Origin: a virus
Virus genome (UHGV): UHGV-0088497
DNA length: 27,542 nt
Strand: one strand, 5' to 3'
This document shows, one piece after another, positions 7,609 through 13,408 of this stretch. The position numbers and the translations under genes are program-made. The notes beneath the pieces were generated by a model, which was given only the letters and a program-made list of their open reading frames with translations, was not told the DNA's origin and searched no databases. Each line of letters starts with the position of its first letter. The stretch's first letter is position 1.

Positions 7609-8600
7609 GGGCTTTGTTAACTCCTGAAGTCGCCCATCGCATGGGGATTGTGTTGTTTCGTCCCGGCGCGGAACTGATGCACCTCTTTATGCGTGGTCGC
7701 GTTTTGCTCGAGCCTGAACCAGAAGAAATGGCGTCATTCAGTACAGGAGCTGTTCCCGCCGCCATTCAGCCGCTGGCTGATGATCCGGTAATGCGGCAGG
7801 TCTTCGAGAATGATCGGGTTATTCAGCGTGCCGGTGGGCTTCCTTCCCTTGAGCAATGGTTGAGTACCCGGTTTGAATGCCAGTGGCCACATTCATCGTG
7901 GCACGATAAGAACTTCACAATAATGCGGCACCCACCAGGAAGTATTCACCTGTGCTGGCATTGCGATCACACTTTGTCGGGGCAACATACCGAACAGCTT
8001 GCAGGTATAGCGGCAGGAAACCTGGTATCCTGGATTCTGGAAGTCATTCGGCGTGATTCTGGTTTTCCCGAGTCGCATATCCTGACGCTTCCGGAACTGT
8101 GCTGGTGGATGGTCAGAAACGACCTGGCTGATGTTATTCCGGAAAGCGTTGCGCACAAGGGGCTACGCCTTCCGGATGAGAAGATCCGCTCGGTCATGAG
8201 GGAAAGCGATATTGTACCTTCCGTTTCTGCAACCAGCCTCGTGCAGGAGAAGGCGAAGAAGATCATCACGCTCTCTGTTGATCCGGAGTCTCCGGAATCT
8301 TTCATGCTCAGGCCAAAGCGACGCCGCTGGATAAATGAGACTTACACCCGCTGGGTAAAAACACAACCCTGTGAGTGTTGCCGACGGCCAGCAGATGATC
8401 CGCACCATATCGTAGGGCACGGTATGGGTGGTACAGCAACAAAAGCCCATGACCTCTTCGTGATCCCTCTGTGCAGAGAGTGCCACGACGAGTTACACGC
8501 CGATGTACCGGCATTCGAGCAGAAGCATGGTACGCAGCTTGAGCTGCTACTGCGTTTTATGGATCGGGCGCTGGCGATCGGTGTAATTGCGAAAGCTTAA
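7605..8600 (+). CDS. DUF968-like phage protein with C-terminal Cys/His-rich HNH-like zinc-binding motif (putative nuclease)
   Basis: 331-aa ORF; C-terminus CECCRRPADDPHHIVGHG...CRECHDELH; GTG start overlapping the upstream stop. Family names from memory. Confidence 0.55.
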   Translation: MRALLTPEVAHRMGIVLFRPGAELMHLFMRGRVLLEPEPEEMASFSTGAVPAAIQPLADDPVMRQVFENDRVIQRAGGLPSLEQWLSTRFECQWPHSSWHDKNFTIMRHPPGSIHLCWHCDHTLSGQHTEQLAGIAAGNLVSWILEVIRRDSGFPESHILTLPELCWWMVRNDLADVIPESVAHKGLRLPDEKIRSVMRESDIVPSVSATSLVQEKAKKIITLSVDPESPESFMLRPKRRRWINETYTRWVKTQPCECCRRPADDPHHIVGHGMGGTATKAHDLFVIPLCRECHDELHADVPAFEQKHGTQLELLLRFMDRALAIGVIAKA

Positions 8601-8617
8601 GTGTATGGAGAAAAGTG

Positions 8618-8983
8618 ATGCGTGATATTCAAATGTTACTTGAAAGATGGGGCGGGTGGGCTGCCAGTGATAGTTCTGGCGTGGACTATTCTCCTATAGC
8701 TGCAGGATTTAAGGGGCTGTTGCCGCAAACAGGTAGATCCCGACCGTCATGTACTGACGATGATGCGCTGATCATCGAAGGTTGCCTGGCGCGATTGAAA
8801 AGCCGGAAACCATATGAGCATTCACTGCTTGTAGCTCACTATCTGTATGGAATATCCAAGAGGAAGATCGCAAAAGTGCGTAAAAAAGATGAGAAATTGA
8901 TACGGATCGAGATACAGATGGCTGAGGGGTTTATTGATGGCTGCCTTTCAATGTTGGATGTAAGGCTTGATATGGATGAATAA
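8618..8983 (+). CDS. late-gene antitermination protein Q (Phage_antitermQ family)
   Basis: N-terminal RDIQMLLERWGGWAA and central AAGFKGLL...DDDALIIEGCLARLK...LLVAHYLYGISKRKIAK resemble Q-like antiterminators of Salmonella/E. coli lambdoid prophages; GGAG upstream. Confidence 0.7.
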   Translation: MRDIQMLLERWGGWAASDSSGVDYSPIAAGFKGLLPQTGRSRPSCTDDDALIIEGCLARLKSRKPYEHSLLVAHYLYGISKRKIAKVRKKDEKLIRIEIQMAEGFIDGCLSMLDVRLDMDE

Positions 8984-8989
8984 CTAATT

Positions 8990-9023
8990 GTTAACATTAT
9001 GCCCCGTGTAGGGGCCTAATGTT
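8990..9023. terminator. long imperfect hairpin (AACATTATGCCCC-GTGTA-GGGGCCTAATGTT) between convergent Q and the minus-strand cassette; tR'-like or bidirectional terminator candidate
   Basis: Inverted repeat read directly; no strong T-run, so function is uncertain. Confidence 0.35.
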
Positions 9024-9471
9024 ACAAGTGAGGGAAAATTCTACGCAGCACTAACCAACACCTACCAAATGTGCAAAGTGAAAGGAGCAGCGAAGACAAT
9101 CCTAACAGGAGAAATAAAAAATCAATTGGTTGAGCAAAGACCTTAACATCCTCTGGTAAGAACATAGCGATCAGTGGAAACAAGCAGGCCAAAATCAGCG
9201 TCAACCCTGTTGATAGCAAGCGATTTATCAATGTTGGTAATATATTATTCCTTTTGAGGGCGTTAATGGCCCCATCTTTGTCACTATCTGCGCTACTGAA
9301 TATAGATATAGCGGCGAGAACAAACCCAAAAAGAATTCCTGAAATTGTCGAAAGCACACCTGCTGTAGTTAACACATCAGCATGTTTCATAGGCTTAAAC
9401 AGTTTTGTCGCTGCATAAGTAATCAGAACTAAGAGGACCACTTTCCAAAAAAGAGTTAGAAATTCTCTCAT
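9022..9471 (-). CDS. small 4-TM inner-membrane protein (149 aa), second gene of two-gene accessory cassette (RexB-like architecture)
   Basis: Four hydrophobic helices; strong SD (AAGGGAGGA) upstream of ATG 9471, 18 nt after the stop of the upstream gene; AT-rich sequence. Confidence 0.65.
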   Translation of the reverse strand: MREFLTLFWKVVLLVLITYAATKLFKPMKHADVLTTAGVLSTISGILFGFVLAAISIFSSADSDKDGAINALKRNNILPTLINRLLSTGLTLILACLFPLIAMFLPEDVKVFAQPIDFLFLLLGLSSLLLSLCTFGRCWLVLRRIFPHL

Positions 9472-9489
9472 TTTGTCCTCCCTTTTGCG

Positions 9490-10437
9490 TTACTGGTTTT
9501 TTTTTGCAAGCTCATACTGTGCAAGGTAATTTGCATTATCAATTTTAGCAGATATCATCGCCGTCCTGATATCAGAATCAGAAGGATAGCCGCTTTTTAC
9601 TACTATAGTTTTCGAGCCTATGAGCACTTGATCAAGTAGGCTTTTTGGCGCTGTATCTGATGGTTCTGTTACATCAATTTTCTTGATGTTTAGCCCGCCA
9701 GAGCCTTTGGGGAATAGTTCAAGCAGTTCTTTAATAGCATCAGTAACTGATGATTTAAGATAGTTGAAGCCTGCTCTTTTGGGACGAATGCGACCGCGCA
9801 TGTTAAGTCTCAGGTGTGAACCGCCCATACCAACCACCATATCAATGATGTCATTAGTAAGGTCATTCTTAATCTGATAATTAGCTTTATTGAAATTTCT
9901 TGGCGCTGCGACAGTGAGGTCAAAACTGCGAAGGATGTTCCCATCTTCAAGAAGTTCCTTCATGCTCTCGTGCTTCCAGATAGCCTCGAATGTAACATTT
10001 TTCATTTGTGTCTTGTTGTACAGAATGAAAGATAAATCATTCACTTTGGGGCCTAAATGGTTGAGAGTCATTGCTAGTAAATCTGTTTCAAAGTAGTAAA
10101 TAAAATATGTCCGTTCTACTACTGAATCTTTATCGCTAAGCGGTATCGTTCGCTCGCTTCCTGTGGTGCCATCCTCGATAAAAGGTAAGAGACAATCACG
10201 CCTCCACGAGACATACCCAAAATAACTCTGCTGCTTATCATCCTTTTCAAGAATGACAAGTTTTAAACCGCGGTTTTGGGTTTCTGCTGTCACCACTAAA
10301 GGGAATGTAACCGGAGTCGTGTTTGTCATTTGCTCGAATGCAAGTTTCGCTGTAGACAGACCGTCTTTTTTACTTCCATTTCCAGTGAAAAAGCCAACTC
10401 TTACGCGACGAGTTTTCTTCTTATCTTCTGTAGTCAT
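9490..10437 (-). CDS. soluble 315-aa protein of unknown function, first gene of two-gene accessory cassette (RexA-like position)
   Basis: Long AT-rich ORF with no catalytic motif I recognise. ORF-track start at 10443 is TTG; ATG at 10437 is more likely. Confidence 0.65.
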   Translation of the reverse strand: MTTEDKKKTRRVRVGFFTGNGSKKDGLSTAKLAFEQMTNTTPVTFPLVVTAETQNRGLKLVILEKDDKQQSYFGYVSWRRDCLLPFIEDGTTGSERTIPLSDKDSVVERTYFIYYFETDLLAMTLNHLGPKVNDLSFILYNKTQMKNVTFEAIWKHESMKELLEDGNILRSFDLTVAAPRNFNKANYQIKNDLTNDIIDMVVGMGGSHLRLNMRGRIRPKRAGFNYLKSSVTDAIKELLELFPKGSGGLNIKKIDVTEPSDTAPKSLLDQVLIGSKTIVVKSGYPSDSDIRTAMISAKIDNANYLAQYELAKKNQ

Positions 10438-10675
10438 TATCAATCCGATGAGAATTTCTGATAAACGGACGAAAAATACTATAAATAATTGAGAAGATCA
10501 TTAGCGCGGTCCGCAAAAAGTGATGTAACGTGTTAAGAGTGGTTACTTGGTCACATTGCTTAATCATCAAATTCAGCTTCTGAGTTTTGTTTTAACGATG
10601 CTTGATTGTGCGACTTATCTCTCTGAAACTTATCTTCTTTTCCTTGACTATGAATTTTCTATCTAAGGAGGTTCT

Positions 10676-10924
10676 ATGTTGGGAGTGTGTTCTTGTGGTG
10701 GTAGGCTTGATGAGTCGCAGTATTCCACCGATAGCCTAGGTAATACGTTCAAATCTTGTCCAAGATGTACGCAGATTTCCGGGCATCACGTTTTCTATCT
10801 TATTGAGGAGTTTGGCGAGAGGGATATGGGGGATGGCAGAGTTATAGTGCAACCATATTGCCCATCGTGCAGAAACTACCAAGAAAGATCATTAGTTCCT
10901 GCGTTTGAGTGCAGTGGTTCATGA
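10676..10924 (+). CDS. Cys-rich zinc-ribbon protein (CSCGG...CPRC...CPSC), 82 aa
   Basis: ORF with strong SD (AAGGAGG, 10663-10669) and a canonical intrinsic terminator immediately downstream. Confidence 0.6.
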   Translation: MLGVCSCGGRLDESQYSTDSLGNTFKSCPRCTQISGHHVFYLIEEFGERDMGDGRVIVQPYCPSCRNYQERSLVPAFECSGS

Positions 10925-10942
10925 TCACAACATTCAATATAA

Positions 10943-10966
10943 GACCACCTTCGGGTGGTTTTTTTA
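10943..10966 (+). terminator. Rho-independent terminator (ACCACC-TTCG-GGTGGT followed by T6)
   Basis: Perfect 6-bp GC-rich stem with tetraloop at 10944-10959 and a T-run at 10960-10965. Confidence 0.8.
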
Positions 10967-11088
10967 TGACAAATCAGACATGCGCGGCGCGTAAAGGCGC
11001 TGGTGGTCGCAGAATGGAATTCTTCTCTTGCTGGTGAAGCCAACCAGAGTTATCTGTATGTCACTCTAATTGTTTAAGGGTAAAAGGC

Positions 11089-11280
11089 ATGCTAAATCAG
11101 CAAGATATGACAGAAACCGCGAAGGCTGTTTTCAATGAGTTAAGCGATAAACCAGCATCGGTTGGGGAGATTGCACAGAATACCCACCTCAGCCGCGAAC
11201 GTTGCCAACTCATACTTACGCAATTGGTGATGGCGGGATTATCTGACTACCAGTTCGGATGTTATAAGCGTTTCCAGTGA
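11089..11280 (+). CDS. small hypothetical protein (63 aa), possibly DNA-binding
   Basis: ORF in track with AAAAGG upstream; short helix-rich sequence; no firm motif. Confidence 0.4.
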   Translation: MLNQQDMTETAKAVFNELSDKPASVGEIAQNTHLSRERCQLILTQLVMAGLSDYQFGCYKRFQ

Positions 11281-11410
11281 TATGTTTTTTTGCACTATGT
11301 GAACTGCATCAACAGTTTAGTTTTTTCTTATTTCTGGCTTAAAAATAGTTTTTGACATAACTCTTTAGCTATTAAGATTTTTTACCTTATCAACTTGATA
11401 GAGGTGAAAA

Positions 11411-11743
11411 ATGAGTGTTGAAAATTATGAAATTGCTTTAAATGATGTTGACCCAACTAACCTGGGTGCGGTTAAAGACTTATTGGAGACACACTCCCAT
11501 CTTTTCAATGACTATTTTCTAGCCGGTTATGGCGGTGATGCCCGATACTCCGTTATTGATGGCTCATTTGAAGTTATCGGTATTGGAGATGGTTTTTTTG
11601 AGTATGAGGTTGGGATTGATTTTTTTGCTGGTTGCTCAGATATGAACGATACCCACGAAGACTCTGGGATACTTGAATATGAAGTTAGAGATGGAAGTAT
11701 TCACATTGAAGTGGATGAAGCTGTCTGGAGAGTAGACAATTAA
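11411..11743 (+). CDS. strongly acidic small protein (110 aa)
   Basis: SD GAGGTG upstream of ATG 11411; many D/E and few K/R (large net negative charge); immediately upstream of a DNA methyltransferase gene. Confidence 0.55.
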   Translation: MSVENYEIALNDVDPTNLGAVKDLLETHSHLFNDYFLAGYGGDARYSVIDGSFEVIGIGDGFFEYEVGIDFFAGCSDMNDTHEDSGILEYEVRDGSIHIEVDEAVWRVDN

Positions 11744-11933
11744 TTCCCGCTTACTGATCCTAATCGCGCCGCTATAAATGGTTTGGCGGCTTTCTGCTGT
11801 GGAAATGGGCGGCTGGTGGGTGTTAGCGCACCCAGTCAGCCATCAGCTCATGCTTTCAGGTCACAAGCTAACCAAGGCCCACTGCTTTAGCGCAAAAGCA
11901 ACGTGAGCCTATCAGAGTTACGCTTACTGATCT

Positions 11934-12986
11934 ATGAAAAATACTGTAAAAATAAACAGGGTTGAGTTAATCAACGCTGATAGCCTGCATTACGTCGCCA
12001 CCCTCCCGGATAACTCTATTGATCTGATTGTTACGGATCCTCCGTACTTCAAAGTGAAGCCTAACGGCTGGGACAACCAATGGAAGGGGGACGAGGACTA
12101 CTTACGCTGGCTTGATAGCTGCCTGGCTGAGTATGCTCGCGTTCTTAAACCTGCTGGCAGCATCTACCTGTTTTGCGGTCACCGACTGGCCTCAGACATA
12201 GAGATTATGATGCGTACCCGGTTCAAAGTTTTGAATCACATCATTTGGGCAAAACCATCGGGCCGCTGGAATGGATGTAACAAAGAAAGCCTGCGTGCGT
12301 ACTTTCCATCTACGGAACGGATTTTGTTTGCTGAGCACTATCTTGGGCCGTACACAGGTAAAGAGGATGTTTACGAAAGGAAAAGCACAGAGCTAAAGCA
12401 GCACATTATGACGCCGCTGATTGATTACTTCCGTAATGCCCGTGAATCACTGGGAGTCAGCTCGAAAGAAATAGCTGAGGCAACCGGAAAGAAAAACATG
12501 GCGTCACACTGGTTTGGTGCAAGCCAATGGCAACTACCAAATGAAGTGGACTATAGAAAATTGCAGGAACTGTTCACGCGGATCGCTATCGATAAGCACA
12601 TTCAGCAGAAGCTTGAACATCCTCACCACCAGCTGGTAGCCACCTATCAGTCATTAAACCGCAAGTATTCAGAATTGCTGGAGGAATACAAAACCCTCCG
12701 GCGCTGCTTCTCTGTTTCCGCTTTTGTTCCGTATACCGACGTATGGACGCATAAGCCTGTTCAGTTTTATCCAGGCAAACATCCATGCGAAAAACCTGCC
12801 GACATGCTGAAGCAGATCATTAGCGCCAGCAGCAGACCGGGGGATATCGTTGCCGATTTCTTTATGGGCTCTGGTTCAACTGTGAAAGCTGCAATAGAAC
12901 TTGGTCGTCGGGCGATCGGCGTAGAACTGGAAACCGACAGGTTTATTCAGACCACCGAAGAGGTGGAAAAACTCAACAAAACATAA
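11934..12986 (+). CDS. beta-class DNA methyltransferase (motif IV DPPY before motif I FxGxG), N6-adenine or N4-cytosine specific, no adjacent restriction gene seen
   Basis: VTDPPYF near the N-terminus and DFFMGSGST near the C-terminus give the beta-class motif order. Confidence 0.8.
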   Translation: MKNTVKINRVELINADSLHYVATLPDNSIDLIVTDPPYFKVKPNGWDNQWKGDEDYLRWLDSCLAEYARVLKPAGSIYLFCGHRLASDIEIMMRTRFKVLNHIIWAKPSGRWNGCNKESLRAYFPSTERILFAEHYLGPYTGKEDVYERKSTELKQHIMTPLIDYFRNARESLGVSSKEIAEATGKKNMASHWFGASQWQLPNEVDYRKLQELFTRIAIDKHIQQKLEHPHHQLVATYQSLNRKYSELLEEYKTLRRCFSVSAFVPYTDVWTHKPVQFYPGKHPCEKPADMLKQIISASSRPGDIVADFFMGSGSTVKAAIELGRRAIGVELETDRFIQTTEEVEKLNKT

Positions 12987-13129
12987 CGATCATCACGCTC
13001 CCTGTTGCTGTGGTGATCACCATTTTCAGGCACCGGGAATCATCCTTACTTTTAGTTGAACAAAAGAGCCCGGTTGCCTGATCCCCTCCAATCACACACA
13101 GCGCCATCCGAAAAATCGGAGGTGAGGCT

Positions 13130-13408
13130 ATGACCAGAATGAGCACCATTTACAGCAGACTTTCATATGGATCAGGAACCACGCTTGCCGGCTGCGGTGT
13201 ATCAGCGAAGGCATATGCCGAAACAGCCAAAACAGCAAAAGAGGTGTCCTGGATGTTGGCCGACAGAATTGCAGGGTTAAGCCTGAGCGACTGGGCAATT
13301 ATTGTCGGTATCGCATGCACAGTTATCACCTGTGCAGTGAACTGGTATTTCCGCTGGAAAGAACGGGAGGATCGGCGCAATGGCTATGCCACCAAAGCTG
13401 AAGAATAA
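13130..13408 (+). CDS. class II holin (pinholin, phage-21 S21-like) with dual-start motif (M-T-R-M)
   Basis: C-terminal TM2 and basic tail (WAIIVGIACTVITCAVNWYFRWKEREDRR) resemble S21; Gly/Ala-rich weakly hydrophobic TM1; GGAGG 7 nt upstream of ATG 13130 and a second ATG at 13139. Confidence 0.75.
   Translation: MTRMSTIYSRLSYGSGTTLAGCGVSAKAYAETAKTAKEVSWMLADRIAGLSLSDWAIIVGIACTVITCAVNWYFRWKEREDRRNGYATKAEE

What the first reader, a model, noticed from the sequence alone, without database searches (positions are those of the whole stretch)
9022..10443. AT-rich antisense two-gene cassette between Q and the lysis genes: candidate abortive-infection / exclusion system with Rex-like architecture
Two co-directional minus-strand genes sit against the flow of the phage late operon: a 315-aa soluble protein with no motif I recognise, followed 18 nt later (strong SD) by a 149-aa protein with four predicted TM helices. 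Both are visibly more AT-rich than the flanking phage genes, which points to horizontal acquisition. A large cytoplasmic protein followed by a small 4-TM protein of ~145 aa is the gene order and size pattern of lambda RexA/RexB, but here the pair is not beside cI; it occupies the Q-to-lysis cargo hotspot. I see only faint local resemblance to RexA as I remember it, so this may be a distant or unrelated sensor-plus-membrane-effector system.
Basis: partly seen in the sequence, partly recalled or inferred. Interest (0 to 1): 0.85.

Follow-up and report, generated by a model that had tools for sequence, protein, structure and literature searches.

The report
Distant RexA/RexB-like prophage defence gene pair
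Two back-to-front genes next to the late-gene activator Q of a Citrobacter prophage are very distant relatives of phage lambda's RexA/RexB exclusion system, so they add a widespread, unnamed enterobacterial family to the few Rex-like systems known, though their function is untested.

Summary
Two minus-strand genes (315 aa, then 149 aa after an 18-nt spacer with a strong ribosome-binding site) lie between Q and the lysis genes in AT-rich DNA.

- **The 149-aa protein (B)** has four transmembrane helices in the same layout as RexB. Family members hit the PADLOC RexB model at about 1e-4. The family profile aligns with RexB at E about 6e-4, above 40 of 40 local-shuffle and 2 reversed controls. The best viral fold match is very probably Sbash gp31, a validated RexB-like protein.
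- **Linkage:** B directly follows A in 86 of 87 loci, and their divergence is tightly coupled (r 0.98) but independent of Q.
- **Mobility:** the cassette carries its own terminator hairpin. In about 74 of 80 viral loci it fills one slot between Q and a conserved backbone element that is probably the late promoter. It also occurs in unrelated mobile elements.

I read it as a RexAB-type abortive-infection system, a new member of a known kind. No phenotype or expression was tested.

The parts
9490..10437 (-). Gene A: 315-aa soluble protein with a RexA-like fold, a divergent member of the DUF6731 family
9472..9489 (-). 18-nt spacer between A and B carrying the ribosome-binding site AAGGGAGG; indicates one operon
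   Evidence: Sequence read directly. A-to-B adjacency on one strand in 86 of 87 loci.
9022..9471 (-). Gene B: 149-aa four-transmembrane protein, RexB-like
   Evidence: ORF. phrog_8552. Hydropathy and positive-inside pattern match RexB. AF2 model with four long helices, pLDDT 81.5. hhalign against the RexB family E 5.6e-4, above all controls. Family members hit PADLOC RexB at 1.2e-4 and 2.1e-4. Top BFVD match is a 165-aa Sbash protein, the length of gp31.
8988..9027 (.). Stem-loop between the convergent stop codons of Q and B; probable terminator or insulator that belongs to the cassette
   Evidence: dG -21.2 kcal/mol on the plus strand and -19.3 on the minus strand, z -3.8 and -4.6. All 27 distinct spacers in related loci have a GC-rich hairpin directly after the B stop. 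Its sequence differs per allele, and several are flanked by A and T runs.
10438..10496 (-). Cassette-specific upstream region; the A-B promoter is expected here but was not identified
   Evidence: Similarity between loci with different A-B alleles resumes only at 10497. A TATAGT sequence at 10483-10478 has no good -35 (read). The consensus scan found nothing usable.
10497..10568 (+). Context: conserved phage-backbone block bordering the slot, candidate Q-dependent late promoter or Q-utilisation site
   Evidence: Conserved at 77-94% where A is too diverged for blastn. Its core GTGTTAAGAGTGGTYACTT is also present next to unrelated cargo in L105-L107. The function is inferred.
8615..8983 (+). Context: antiterminator Q gene, convergent with B; its stop lies 38 nt from the B stop
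   Evidence: PF06530, E 1.7e-53. In about 74 of 80 viral loci the same Q family lies 15-50 nt from the B stop.

Best explanation
The pair is a RexAB-type two-component phage-exclusion (abortive-infection) cassette carried as an autonomous cargo unit by a lambdoid prophage. Shown here: A has the RexA/RdgC-type two-domain fold and is closest to lambda RexA. B is a small four-helix inner-membrane protein with RexB's layout and faint RexB sequence similarity. The two genes are always adjacent, are translationally linked and co-diverge. The unit has its own terminator hairpin and moves between mobile elements. Inferred by analogy with lambda RexAB, P. putida RexABpp and Sbash gp30/gp31: A is a cytoplasmic dimer that binds DNA non-specifically and senses a product or intermediate of an infecting phage. 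Activated A engages the cytoplasmic central loop of oligomeric B. B then compromises the membrane potential or integrity, so ATP falls, growth stops and the infecting phage fails to replicate. Also inferred: the pair is expressed from the prophage in lysogens, from a promoter in or beside 10438-10568.

For: **B resembles RexB.** The transmembrane boundaries and the K/R-rich central loop match RexB. hhalign of the B family against the RexB family gives E 5.6e-4. The true score of 27.5 compares with a maximum of 20.9 in 40 local shuffles and 12-14 for reversed controls. PADLOC RexB is hit by two B-family members at 1.2e-4 and 2.1e-4, one of them nearly full length. That member, P0149, is the partner of a DUF6731 protein and is 31% identical to RexB over 84 columns. 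The best BFVD fold match is a 165-aa Sbash protein, the length of gp31.

**Linkage.** B follows A in 86 of 87 loci. Four distant DUF6731 genes also have a small multi-transmembrane partner directly downstream. Identity of A and of B to the window copy correlates at r 0.98, against 0.18 for A and Q.

**Mobility typical of defence cargo.** The pair occurs in lambdoid prophages, a different Klebsiella prophage next to an Imm_superinfect gene, beside a Vibrio inovirus, and in a Vinavirales element. The DNA is AT-rich and the cassette carries its own hairpin.
Against: - A shows no significant sequence-level link to RexA: hhalign E 0.06-0.14, and no Pfam or PADLOC RexA hit.
- The window's own B does not hit RexB models. 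The RexB link rests on weak scores for membrane proteins, where composition inflates similarity.
- The fold is shared with RdgC and kinetochore DNA-binding proteins, so it does not by itself imply defence.
- No promoter was found and nothing is known about expression.
- No phenotype is known for any DUF6731 member; no paper mentions the family.
- Rex-like systems differ in which partner is the effector (Butters), and the mechanism of lambda Rex is itself unsettled.
Confidence: 0.6

Rival explanations
1. Reversed polarity, as in Kiwa or the Butters gp30/gp31 system. B is the membrane anchor or sensor that holds A inactive. On infection A is released or activated and is itself the effector, binding incoming or replicating phage DNA and blocking replication without membrane damage.
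For: A has a DNA-clamp type fold, and RexA and RdgC bind DNA non-specifically. Kiwa pairs a four-helix membrane protein with a non-specific DNA-binding dimer that blocks replication. In Butters the cytosolic partner is the effector. One B-family member weakly hits KwaA at E 0.0016.
Against: A has no DUF4868 or KwaB signal, and no KwaB chain appears in either fold-search list. The gene order is A then B, as in Rex, not KwaA then KwaB. B's nearest relatives are RexB and probably Sbash gp31, which act as effectors.
Confidence: 0.15
2. The pair mainly serves the prophage's own development and not defence. Lambda RexA biases the CI-Cro switch towards the lytic state. By analogy, A (and convergent transcription into Q) would tune Q or late-promoter activity, which would explain the constant position beside Q.
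For: In about 74 of 80 viral loci the pair sits 15-50 nt from the Q stop and next to the conserved backbone block. Lambda RexA has a documented regulatory role independent of RexB.
Against: The same slot holds unrelated cargo in other prophages. A-B alleles swap independently of Q (r 0.18). The pair also occurs in elements without any Q gene. A hairpin separates the two transcription units in every allele.
Confidence: 0.08
3. A different kind of membrane-associated cargo, for example a superinfection-exclusion function that blocks DNA entry, or a host-fitness factor. The Rex resemblance would then reflect only shared ancestry of folds.
For: The sequence links to Rex are weak. Prophage cargo slots carry many kinds of genes. 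In Klebsiella the pair's neighbour is an Imm_superinfect gene.
Against: A strictly conserved, co-evolving pair of a soluble RexA-fold protein and a RexB-like protein is the defining Rex architecture. All five described Rex-like systems tested so far confer phage defence.
Confidence: 0.1

Closest known systems
Phage lambda RexA/RexB exclusion system
   Same: Gene order is soluble protein then small membrane protein, in one operon on a temperate lambdoid phage. The A model's best structural match is RexA. B has RexB's size, four-helix layout and basic central loop, plus faint sequence similarity.
   Different: A has no significant sequence similarity to RexA, and neither window protein hits the RexA or RexB models. 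A is 36 residues longer. The pair lies beside Q and the late-promoter region, not beside cI. Function is untested.
Pseudomonas putida prophage P1 RexABpp (PP_5643/PP_5644; PMC12894663, 2026)
   Different: Whether PP_5643 belongs to DUF6731 could not be tested, because the sequence could not be obtained. That system lies downstream of a Cro/CI-type repressor gene.
Mycobacteriophage Sbash gp30/gp31 and Gordonia phage CarolAnn gp44/gp43
   Same: Validated Rex-like pairs with a four-helix effector whose central cytoplasmic loop is essential. The B model's best viral fold match is a 165-aa Sbash protein, the length of gp31.
   Different: There is no sequence similarity: hhalign of B against gp31 gives E 0.38, and gp30 is 372 aa. 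The hosts are Actinobacteria. The identity of the BFVD hit with gp31 rests on length and fold only; Sbash genes 1-17 were not checked.
Kiwa (KwaA/KwaB)
   Same: A four-helix membrane protein plus a dimeric, non-specific DNA-binding protein of about 315 aa. It is a possible mechanistic analogue.
   Different: KwaB is a Rossmann-like domain plus DUF4868, a different fold. The gene order is reversed. A has no profile or fold match.
RdgC recombination-associated protein
   Different: A much weaker match than RexA. RdgC is a chromosomal housekeeping gene with no membrane partner.

Membership tests
RexAB-type exclusion systems | Large subunit has the RexA two-domain fold (split globular domain plus inserted dimerisation domain) | tested here: met
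RexAB-type exclusion systems | Large subunit matches RexA sequence models (Pfam PF15969, PADLOC RexA) | tested here: not met
   No hit at E up to 10 for A or 41 relatives. No PADLOC RexA hit, while lambda RexA scores 9e-110 as a control. hhalign E 0.06. The validated Sbash gp30 also fails the PADLOC model.
RexAB-type exclusion systems | Small four-transmembrane protein encoded directly downstream in the same operon | tested here: met
   18-nt gap with a ribosome-binding site. Four transmembrane helices. Adjacency in 86 of 87 loci.
RexAB-type exclusion systems | Small subunit homologous to RexB (PF15968, PADLOC RexB) | tested here: inconclusive
   The window's B has no hit. Two family members hit PADLOC RexB at about 1e-4, and one of 33 hits Pfam RexB at 0.03. 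Profile-profile E is 5.6e-4, above all controls. P0149 is 31% identical to RexB over 84 columns.
RexAB-type exclusion systems | Located in the immunity region and co-expressed with the repressor (lambda arrangement) | tested here: not met
   The pair lies convergent with Q, about 6 kb from the repressor region. Sbash, Butters and Rubeelu also depart from this arrangement.
RexAB-type exclusion systems | Large subunit dimerises and binds DNA non-specifically; both genes are needed for phage exclusion with membrane depolarisation | not testable with these tools
   Needs biochemistry and infection assays.
DUF6731 (PF20505) | Match to the family profile | tested here: met
   The window protein itself has no Pfam hit. 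Relatives at 61% identity or less carry PF20505, and 18 of 42 aligned relatives hit it. The A1 profile retrieves DUF6731 proteins at E 1e-26 to 1e-7. Membership is therefore by transitive profile evidence.
Kiwa (KwaA/KwaB) | KwaB with a DUF4868 domain; KwaA encoded first | tested here: not met
   A has no DUF4868 or KwaB hit. No KwaB chain appears in the fold-search lists. The gene order is opposite. Only one B relative hits KwaA, at 0.0016.
PADLOC candidate system PDC-M67 | Match to the PDC-M67A and PDC-M67B profiles | tested here: inconclusive
   A hits PDC-M67A at E 0.003, colinear over about 90 residues. A distant DUF6731 protein hits at 1.3e-4. Two B relatives hit PDC-M67B at 0.06. This is possibly a sister branch, not membership.

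The most novel reading that the evidence does not exclude
The fixed position of this RexA/RexB-like cassette is functional. It is wedged between the Q gene and what looks like Q's target promoter, and transcribed towards Q. On this reading the RexA-like DNA-binding protein, or the convergent transcript, gates the prophage's own late-gene switch while the pair also aborts superinfection. It would be a second example, at the Q/late-promoter node, of the dual role proposed for lambda RexA at the CI/Cro switch.
Probability: 0.08. Interest if true: 0.75.

Novelty: new member of a known kind. Interest (0 to 1): 0.55.

Why it matters
A 2026 paper states that only five Rex-like systems have been described, and the mechanism of lambda Rex is still unsettled roughly 70 years after its discovery.

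If this reading is right, several things follow:

- **A named family.** The uncharacterised family DUF6731 and its unnamed four-helix partner become a Rex-like family.
- **A common one.** It is frequent in prophages of Escherichia coli, Citrobacter, Klebsiella, Salmonella, Yersinia, Serratia and Vibrio. At the DNA level alone, 207 of 5,426 complete E. coli genomes match this allele.
- **Many natural variants.** Alleles range from 41% to 100% identity in one genomic slot. That gives material for finding what triggers Rex-type sensors and how A talks to B.
- **A tractable model.** The pair is orf54/orf53 of the sequenced phage cdtI.
- **A gap in current tools.** Defence-finding tools that rely on RexA and RexB sequence models miss this family.
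- **A cargo slot.** The region between Q and the late promoter exchanges membrane-associated cassettes.

Tried and rejected
- **Direct profile searches.** Pfam, NCBIfam, PADLOC and PHROGs named nothing for A or B beyond PHROG families of unknown function and a weak PDC-M67A hit.
- **PDB by sequence.** A profile search found nothing.
- **KwaB/DUF4868.**
- **MotA/ExbB.** Nine of 33 B relatives hit this proton-channel family weakly. RexB family members do not share the hit, so I treat it as composition noise.
- **Sequence homology of A to RexA.** hhalign gave E 0.14 against one sequence and 0.06 against a four-sequence family. It aligns the family's most conserved motif NHLGPxxxDL with RexA's invariant GPxxxDL. 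This is suggestive but not significant.
- **B against Sbash gp31 by sequence.** No similarity.
- **Other cargo in the same slot.** Cargo in L105-L107 shows no HMM similarity to A, B, RexA or RexB.
- **Phage collection at the DNA level.** No match. The protein search found five records.
- **Fetching P. putida PP_5643.** A 22-mer derived from a published primer had no match in the species-representative genomes, so the relation to RexApp is untested.
- **AlphaFold database.** The afdb50 library was unavailable for the B model.
- **Promoter scan.** No convincing promoter for the pair.
- **Rfam.** Nothing above chance in 8500-13300.

Full report
**1. Observation**

- **A** runs 9490-10437 and is 315 aa from its ATG. 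The mechanical ORF begins two codons earlier, at a TTG. An identical 315-aa protein is on record from Citrobacter freundii.
- **B** runs 9022-9471 and is 149 aa.
- **The spacer** is 18 nt and contains AAGGGAGG.
- **Composition:** GC is 0.39-0.42 over the pair against 0.52-0.55 in the genes left of Q. The AT-rich stretch extends from about 8.6 to 11.8 kb.
- **Context:** the flanking genes are a Q antiterminator (PF06530, E 1.7e-53) on one side. On the other side are small ORFs, an N6/N4 DNA methyltransferase, a holin, a lysozyme and a DUF2514 spanin-like gene.

The window is a lambdoid prophage, and the description is confirmed.

**2. What protein A is**

- **Profile searches:** A has no direct hit in Pfam, NCBIfam or the PDB by sequence. 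It belongs only to an uncharacterised PHROG and has a weak, colinear hit to the PADLOC candidate PDC-M67A.
- **Family DUF6731:** relatives at 61% identity and below carry PF20505 (DUF6731). Eighteen of 42 aligned relatives hit that model. An exhaustive HMMER search with the family profile found 249 cluster representatives at E ≤ 1e-3. The distant ones (285-306 aa) are DUF6731 proteins of Pseudoalteromonas, Shewanella and Vibrio. A is therefore a divergent DUF6731 protein. No paper in the searched library mentions DUF6731.
- **Structure:** an AlphaFold2 model built on 42 sequences has pLDDT 82 and pTM 0.68.
  - The next hits are Iml3, Chl4 and CENP-N at about 7 and RdgC at 6.2.
  - That list matches the set of structural relatives the RexA structure paper reports for RexA itself (PMC11077077).
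  - Foldseek independently ranks RexA first (E 2.7e-6) and RdgC second (5.5e-4).
- **Topology:** the order of secondary-structure elements is a strand-rich N-terminal part, a mixed insert at about 156-257, and C-terminal helices. This fits RexA's split globular domain with an inserted dimerisation domain.
- **Sequence link to RexA:** not significant. hhalign gives E 0.14 and 0.06. It does align the family's most conserved motif, NHLGPxxxDL, with RexA's invariant GPxxxDL in the same position before the hinge.

**3. What protein B is**

- **Layout:** hydropathy gives four segments (4-25, 39-57, 85-103, 118-136). The central loop and C-terminus are basic. RexB's segments are 8-26, 44-66, 84-102 and 116-134, and its central loop is also basic. 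The AF2 model (pLDDT 81.5) has four long helices.
- **The window's own B** hits no RexB model.
- **Two B-family members hit the PADLOC RexB model.**
  - The partner of a distant DUF6731 gene (L093) scores E 1.2e-4.
  - P0149 scores E 2.1e-4 over nearly the full length.
  - P0149 was retrieved with the window's B at E 7e-6.
  - It lies directly downstream of a 305-aa DUF6731 gene.
  - It is 31% identical to RexB over 84 aligned columns (hhalign E 0.0018).
- **Profile-profile comparison:** a broadened B-family profile against a 14-member RexB family gives E 5.6e-4. The true score is 27.5. Forty locally shuffled RexB controls reach at most 20.9, and reversed controls score 12-14.
- **Fold match among viral proteins:** the best BFVD match of the B model is an uncharacterised 165-aa protein of mycobacteriophage Sbash (prob 0.99). 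Among Sbash genes 18-89, only gene 31 encodes 165 aa. gp31 is the RexB-like effector of a validated defence system (PMC6426596).

Each line is weak on its own, and membrane proteins inflate such scores. Together they make distant RexB homology likely.

**4. The pair is one unit**

- Across the window and 86 related loci, B follows A on the same strand in 86 of 87 cases. The exception has a truncated A.
- Four distant DUF6731 genes also have a 132-146 aa multi-transmembrane ORF directly downstream. These share a motif in the second helix, S-T-x-[SA]-G-x-L-[FL]-G-F.
- Identity of A and of B to the window copies correlates at r 0.98 over 80 loci. Identity of A and of the neighbouring Q correlates at only 0.18.

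**5. Where it sits and how it moves**

- **Position beside Q.** In about 74 of 80 viral-contig loci the pair is convergent with the same Q family. The two stop codons are 15-50 nt apart. A ranges from 41% to 100% identity while Q stays at 50-92%.
- **Own terminator hairpin.**
  - All 27 distinct spacers carry a GC-rich hairpin just after the B stop.
  - Its sequence differs between alleles, and several are flanked by A and T runs like bidirectional terminators.
  - The window's hairpin (8988-9027) folds at -21 and -19 kcal/mol on the two strands.
- **Backbone block on the other side.**
  - Similarity between different alleles resumes at 10497-10568.
  - The core of that block is present even where the slot holds unrelated cargo.
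  - Those cargos are a 357-aa four-helix coiled-coil protein, or a pair of about 290 aa and about 135 aa.
  - The block therefore belongs to the phage backbone.
- **Probably outside the late operon.**
  - Only 38 nt separate Q from B, which leaves no room for a promoter there.
  - In one relative, tRNA genes follow the block.
  - I infer that the block is, or adjoins, the Q-dependent late promoter.
  - The cassette would then lie between Q and that promoter, outside the late operon.
- **Other mobile elements.** The pair also occurs in:
  - a non-lambdoid Klebsiella prophage, beside an Imm_superinfect gene;
  - next to an inovirus prophage in Vibrio fluvialis;
  - next to an integrase with CI and GPA genes in a metagenome contig;
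  - a Vinavirales element of Vibrio cyclitrophicus.
- **In a sequenced phage.** The pair is orf54/orf53 of phage cdtI, in the same arrangement.

**6. Mechanism**

*Shown:* the fold of A, the layout and faint RexB similarity of B, operon linkage, co-divergence, modular mobility and a private terminator.

*Inferred from lambda RexAB, P. putida RexABpp and Sbash gp30/gp31:*

- A is a DNA-binding dimer that senses infection and activates oligomeric B through its cytoplasmic loop.
- B then damages the membrane potential, which arrests the cell and aborts the infection.

I give the full mechanism 0.6, and the narrower claim that this is a RexAB-type pair about 0.85.

*Rivals:*

- Reversed polarity as in Kiwa or Butters (0.15).
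- A role in the prophage's own Q/late switch (0.08). Unrelated cargo in the same slot and occurrence without Q weaken this.
- Some other membrane cargo function (0.1).

**7. Comparison and novelty**

- The pair meets the architectural and fold criteria of Rex-like systems. It fails the RexA sequence models and the lambda genomic position.
- The validated Sbash gp30 fails the PADLOC RexA model too. Rex-like pairs already vary in genomic position.
- I therefore class this as a new member of a known kind: a sixth, sequence-distinct and apparently much more widespread Rex-like family.
- It is not Kiwa.
- Its relation to PP_5643 could not be tested.

**8. Limits**

- There are no expression or phenotype data, and no promoter was found.
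- The RexB link is weak.
- Calling the Sbash hit gp31 rests on length and fold.
- The late-promoter assignment of 10497-10568 is inference.

Noticed in passing
window 10497-10568: A non-coding block is conserved together with Q even where the antisense cargo is unrelated (core GTGTTAAGAGTGGTYACTT in L105-L107). It probably marks the Q-dependent late promoter or Q-utilisation site. That would place the cargo slot between Q and its target promoter.
   Followed up: partly
L105 5261-6334; L106 5189-6743; L107 4912-6460: The same slot after Q in E. coli prophages holds other antisense cargo. One is a 357-aa four-transmembrane coiled-coil protein. Another is a soluble protein of about 290 aa (annotated 'LAPAL motif-containing putative phage structural protein') with a two-transmembrane protein of about 135 aa. 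Neither shows HMM similarity to A, B, RexA or RexB. They may be further uncharacterised two-gene membrane systems.
   Followed up: partly
window 8988-9027 and the equivalent spacers in L009-L088: Every one of 27 distinct spacers between the B and Q stop codons has a GC-rich hairpin directly after the B stop. The sequence differs per allele while the structure is kept, and several have A and T runs like bidirectional terminators. The window version has a stem of about 13 bp without a T run.
   Followed up: yes
window 10676-10966: An 82-aa ORF with two CxxC pairs (zinc-ribbon-like, no Pfam hit, 50-99% conserved in a few loci) is followed by a strong plus-strand intrinsic terminator, GACCACC-TTCG-GGTGGT plus seven T, at about 10941-10966.
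   Followed up: partly
window 11089-11280 and 11934-12986: A 63-aa protein with a DprA-like winged helix (E 8e-5) and a 350-aa N6/N4 DNA methyltransferase occur together between the slot and the holin in many related prophages, including phage cdtI. This looks like an orphan methylase module. The 110-aa acidic ORF between them (11411-11743) has no match.
   Followed up: no
phage records ON470608.1 and ON470622.1: The A homologue in Escherichia phages vB_EcoS-733R5 and vB_EcoS-716R3 is annotated 'portal (connector) protein'. Given its RexA-like fold and DUF6731 membership, this is almost certainly a mis-annotation.
   Followed up: no
L110 (PQ189356.1) 1389-2896; L002 6001-7420; L094 4001-5430: The A-B pair also rides on non-tailed or unrelated elements: a Vinavirales (autolykivirus-like) Vibrio element next to its integrase, the edge of an inovirus prophage in Vibrio fluvialis, and an integrase/CI/GPA element in a marine metagenome.
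   Followed up: partly
PADLOC models PDC-M67A and PDC-M67B: A, one distant DUF6731 protein and two B relatives give weak, colinear hits to the two components of the untested PADLOC candidate system PDC-M67. That candidate may be another branch of Rex-like systems.
   Followed up: no
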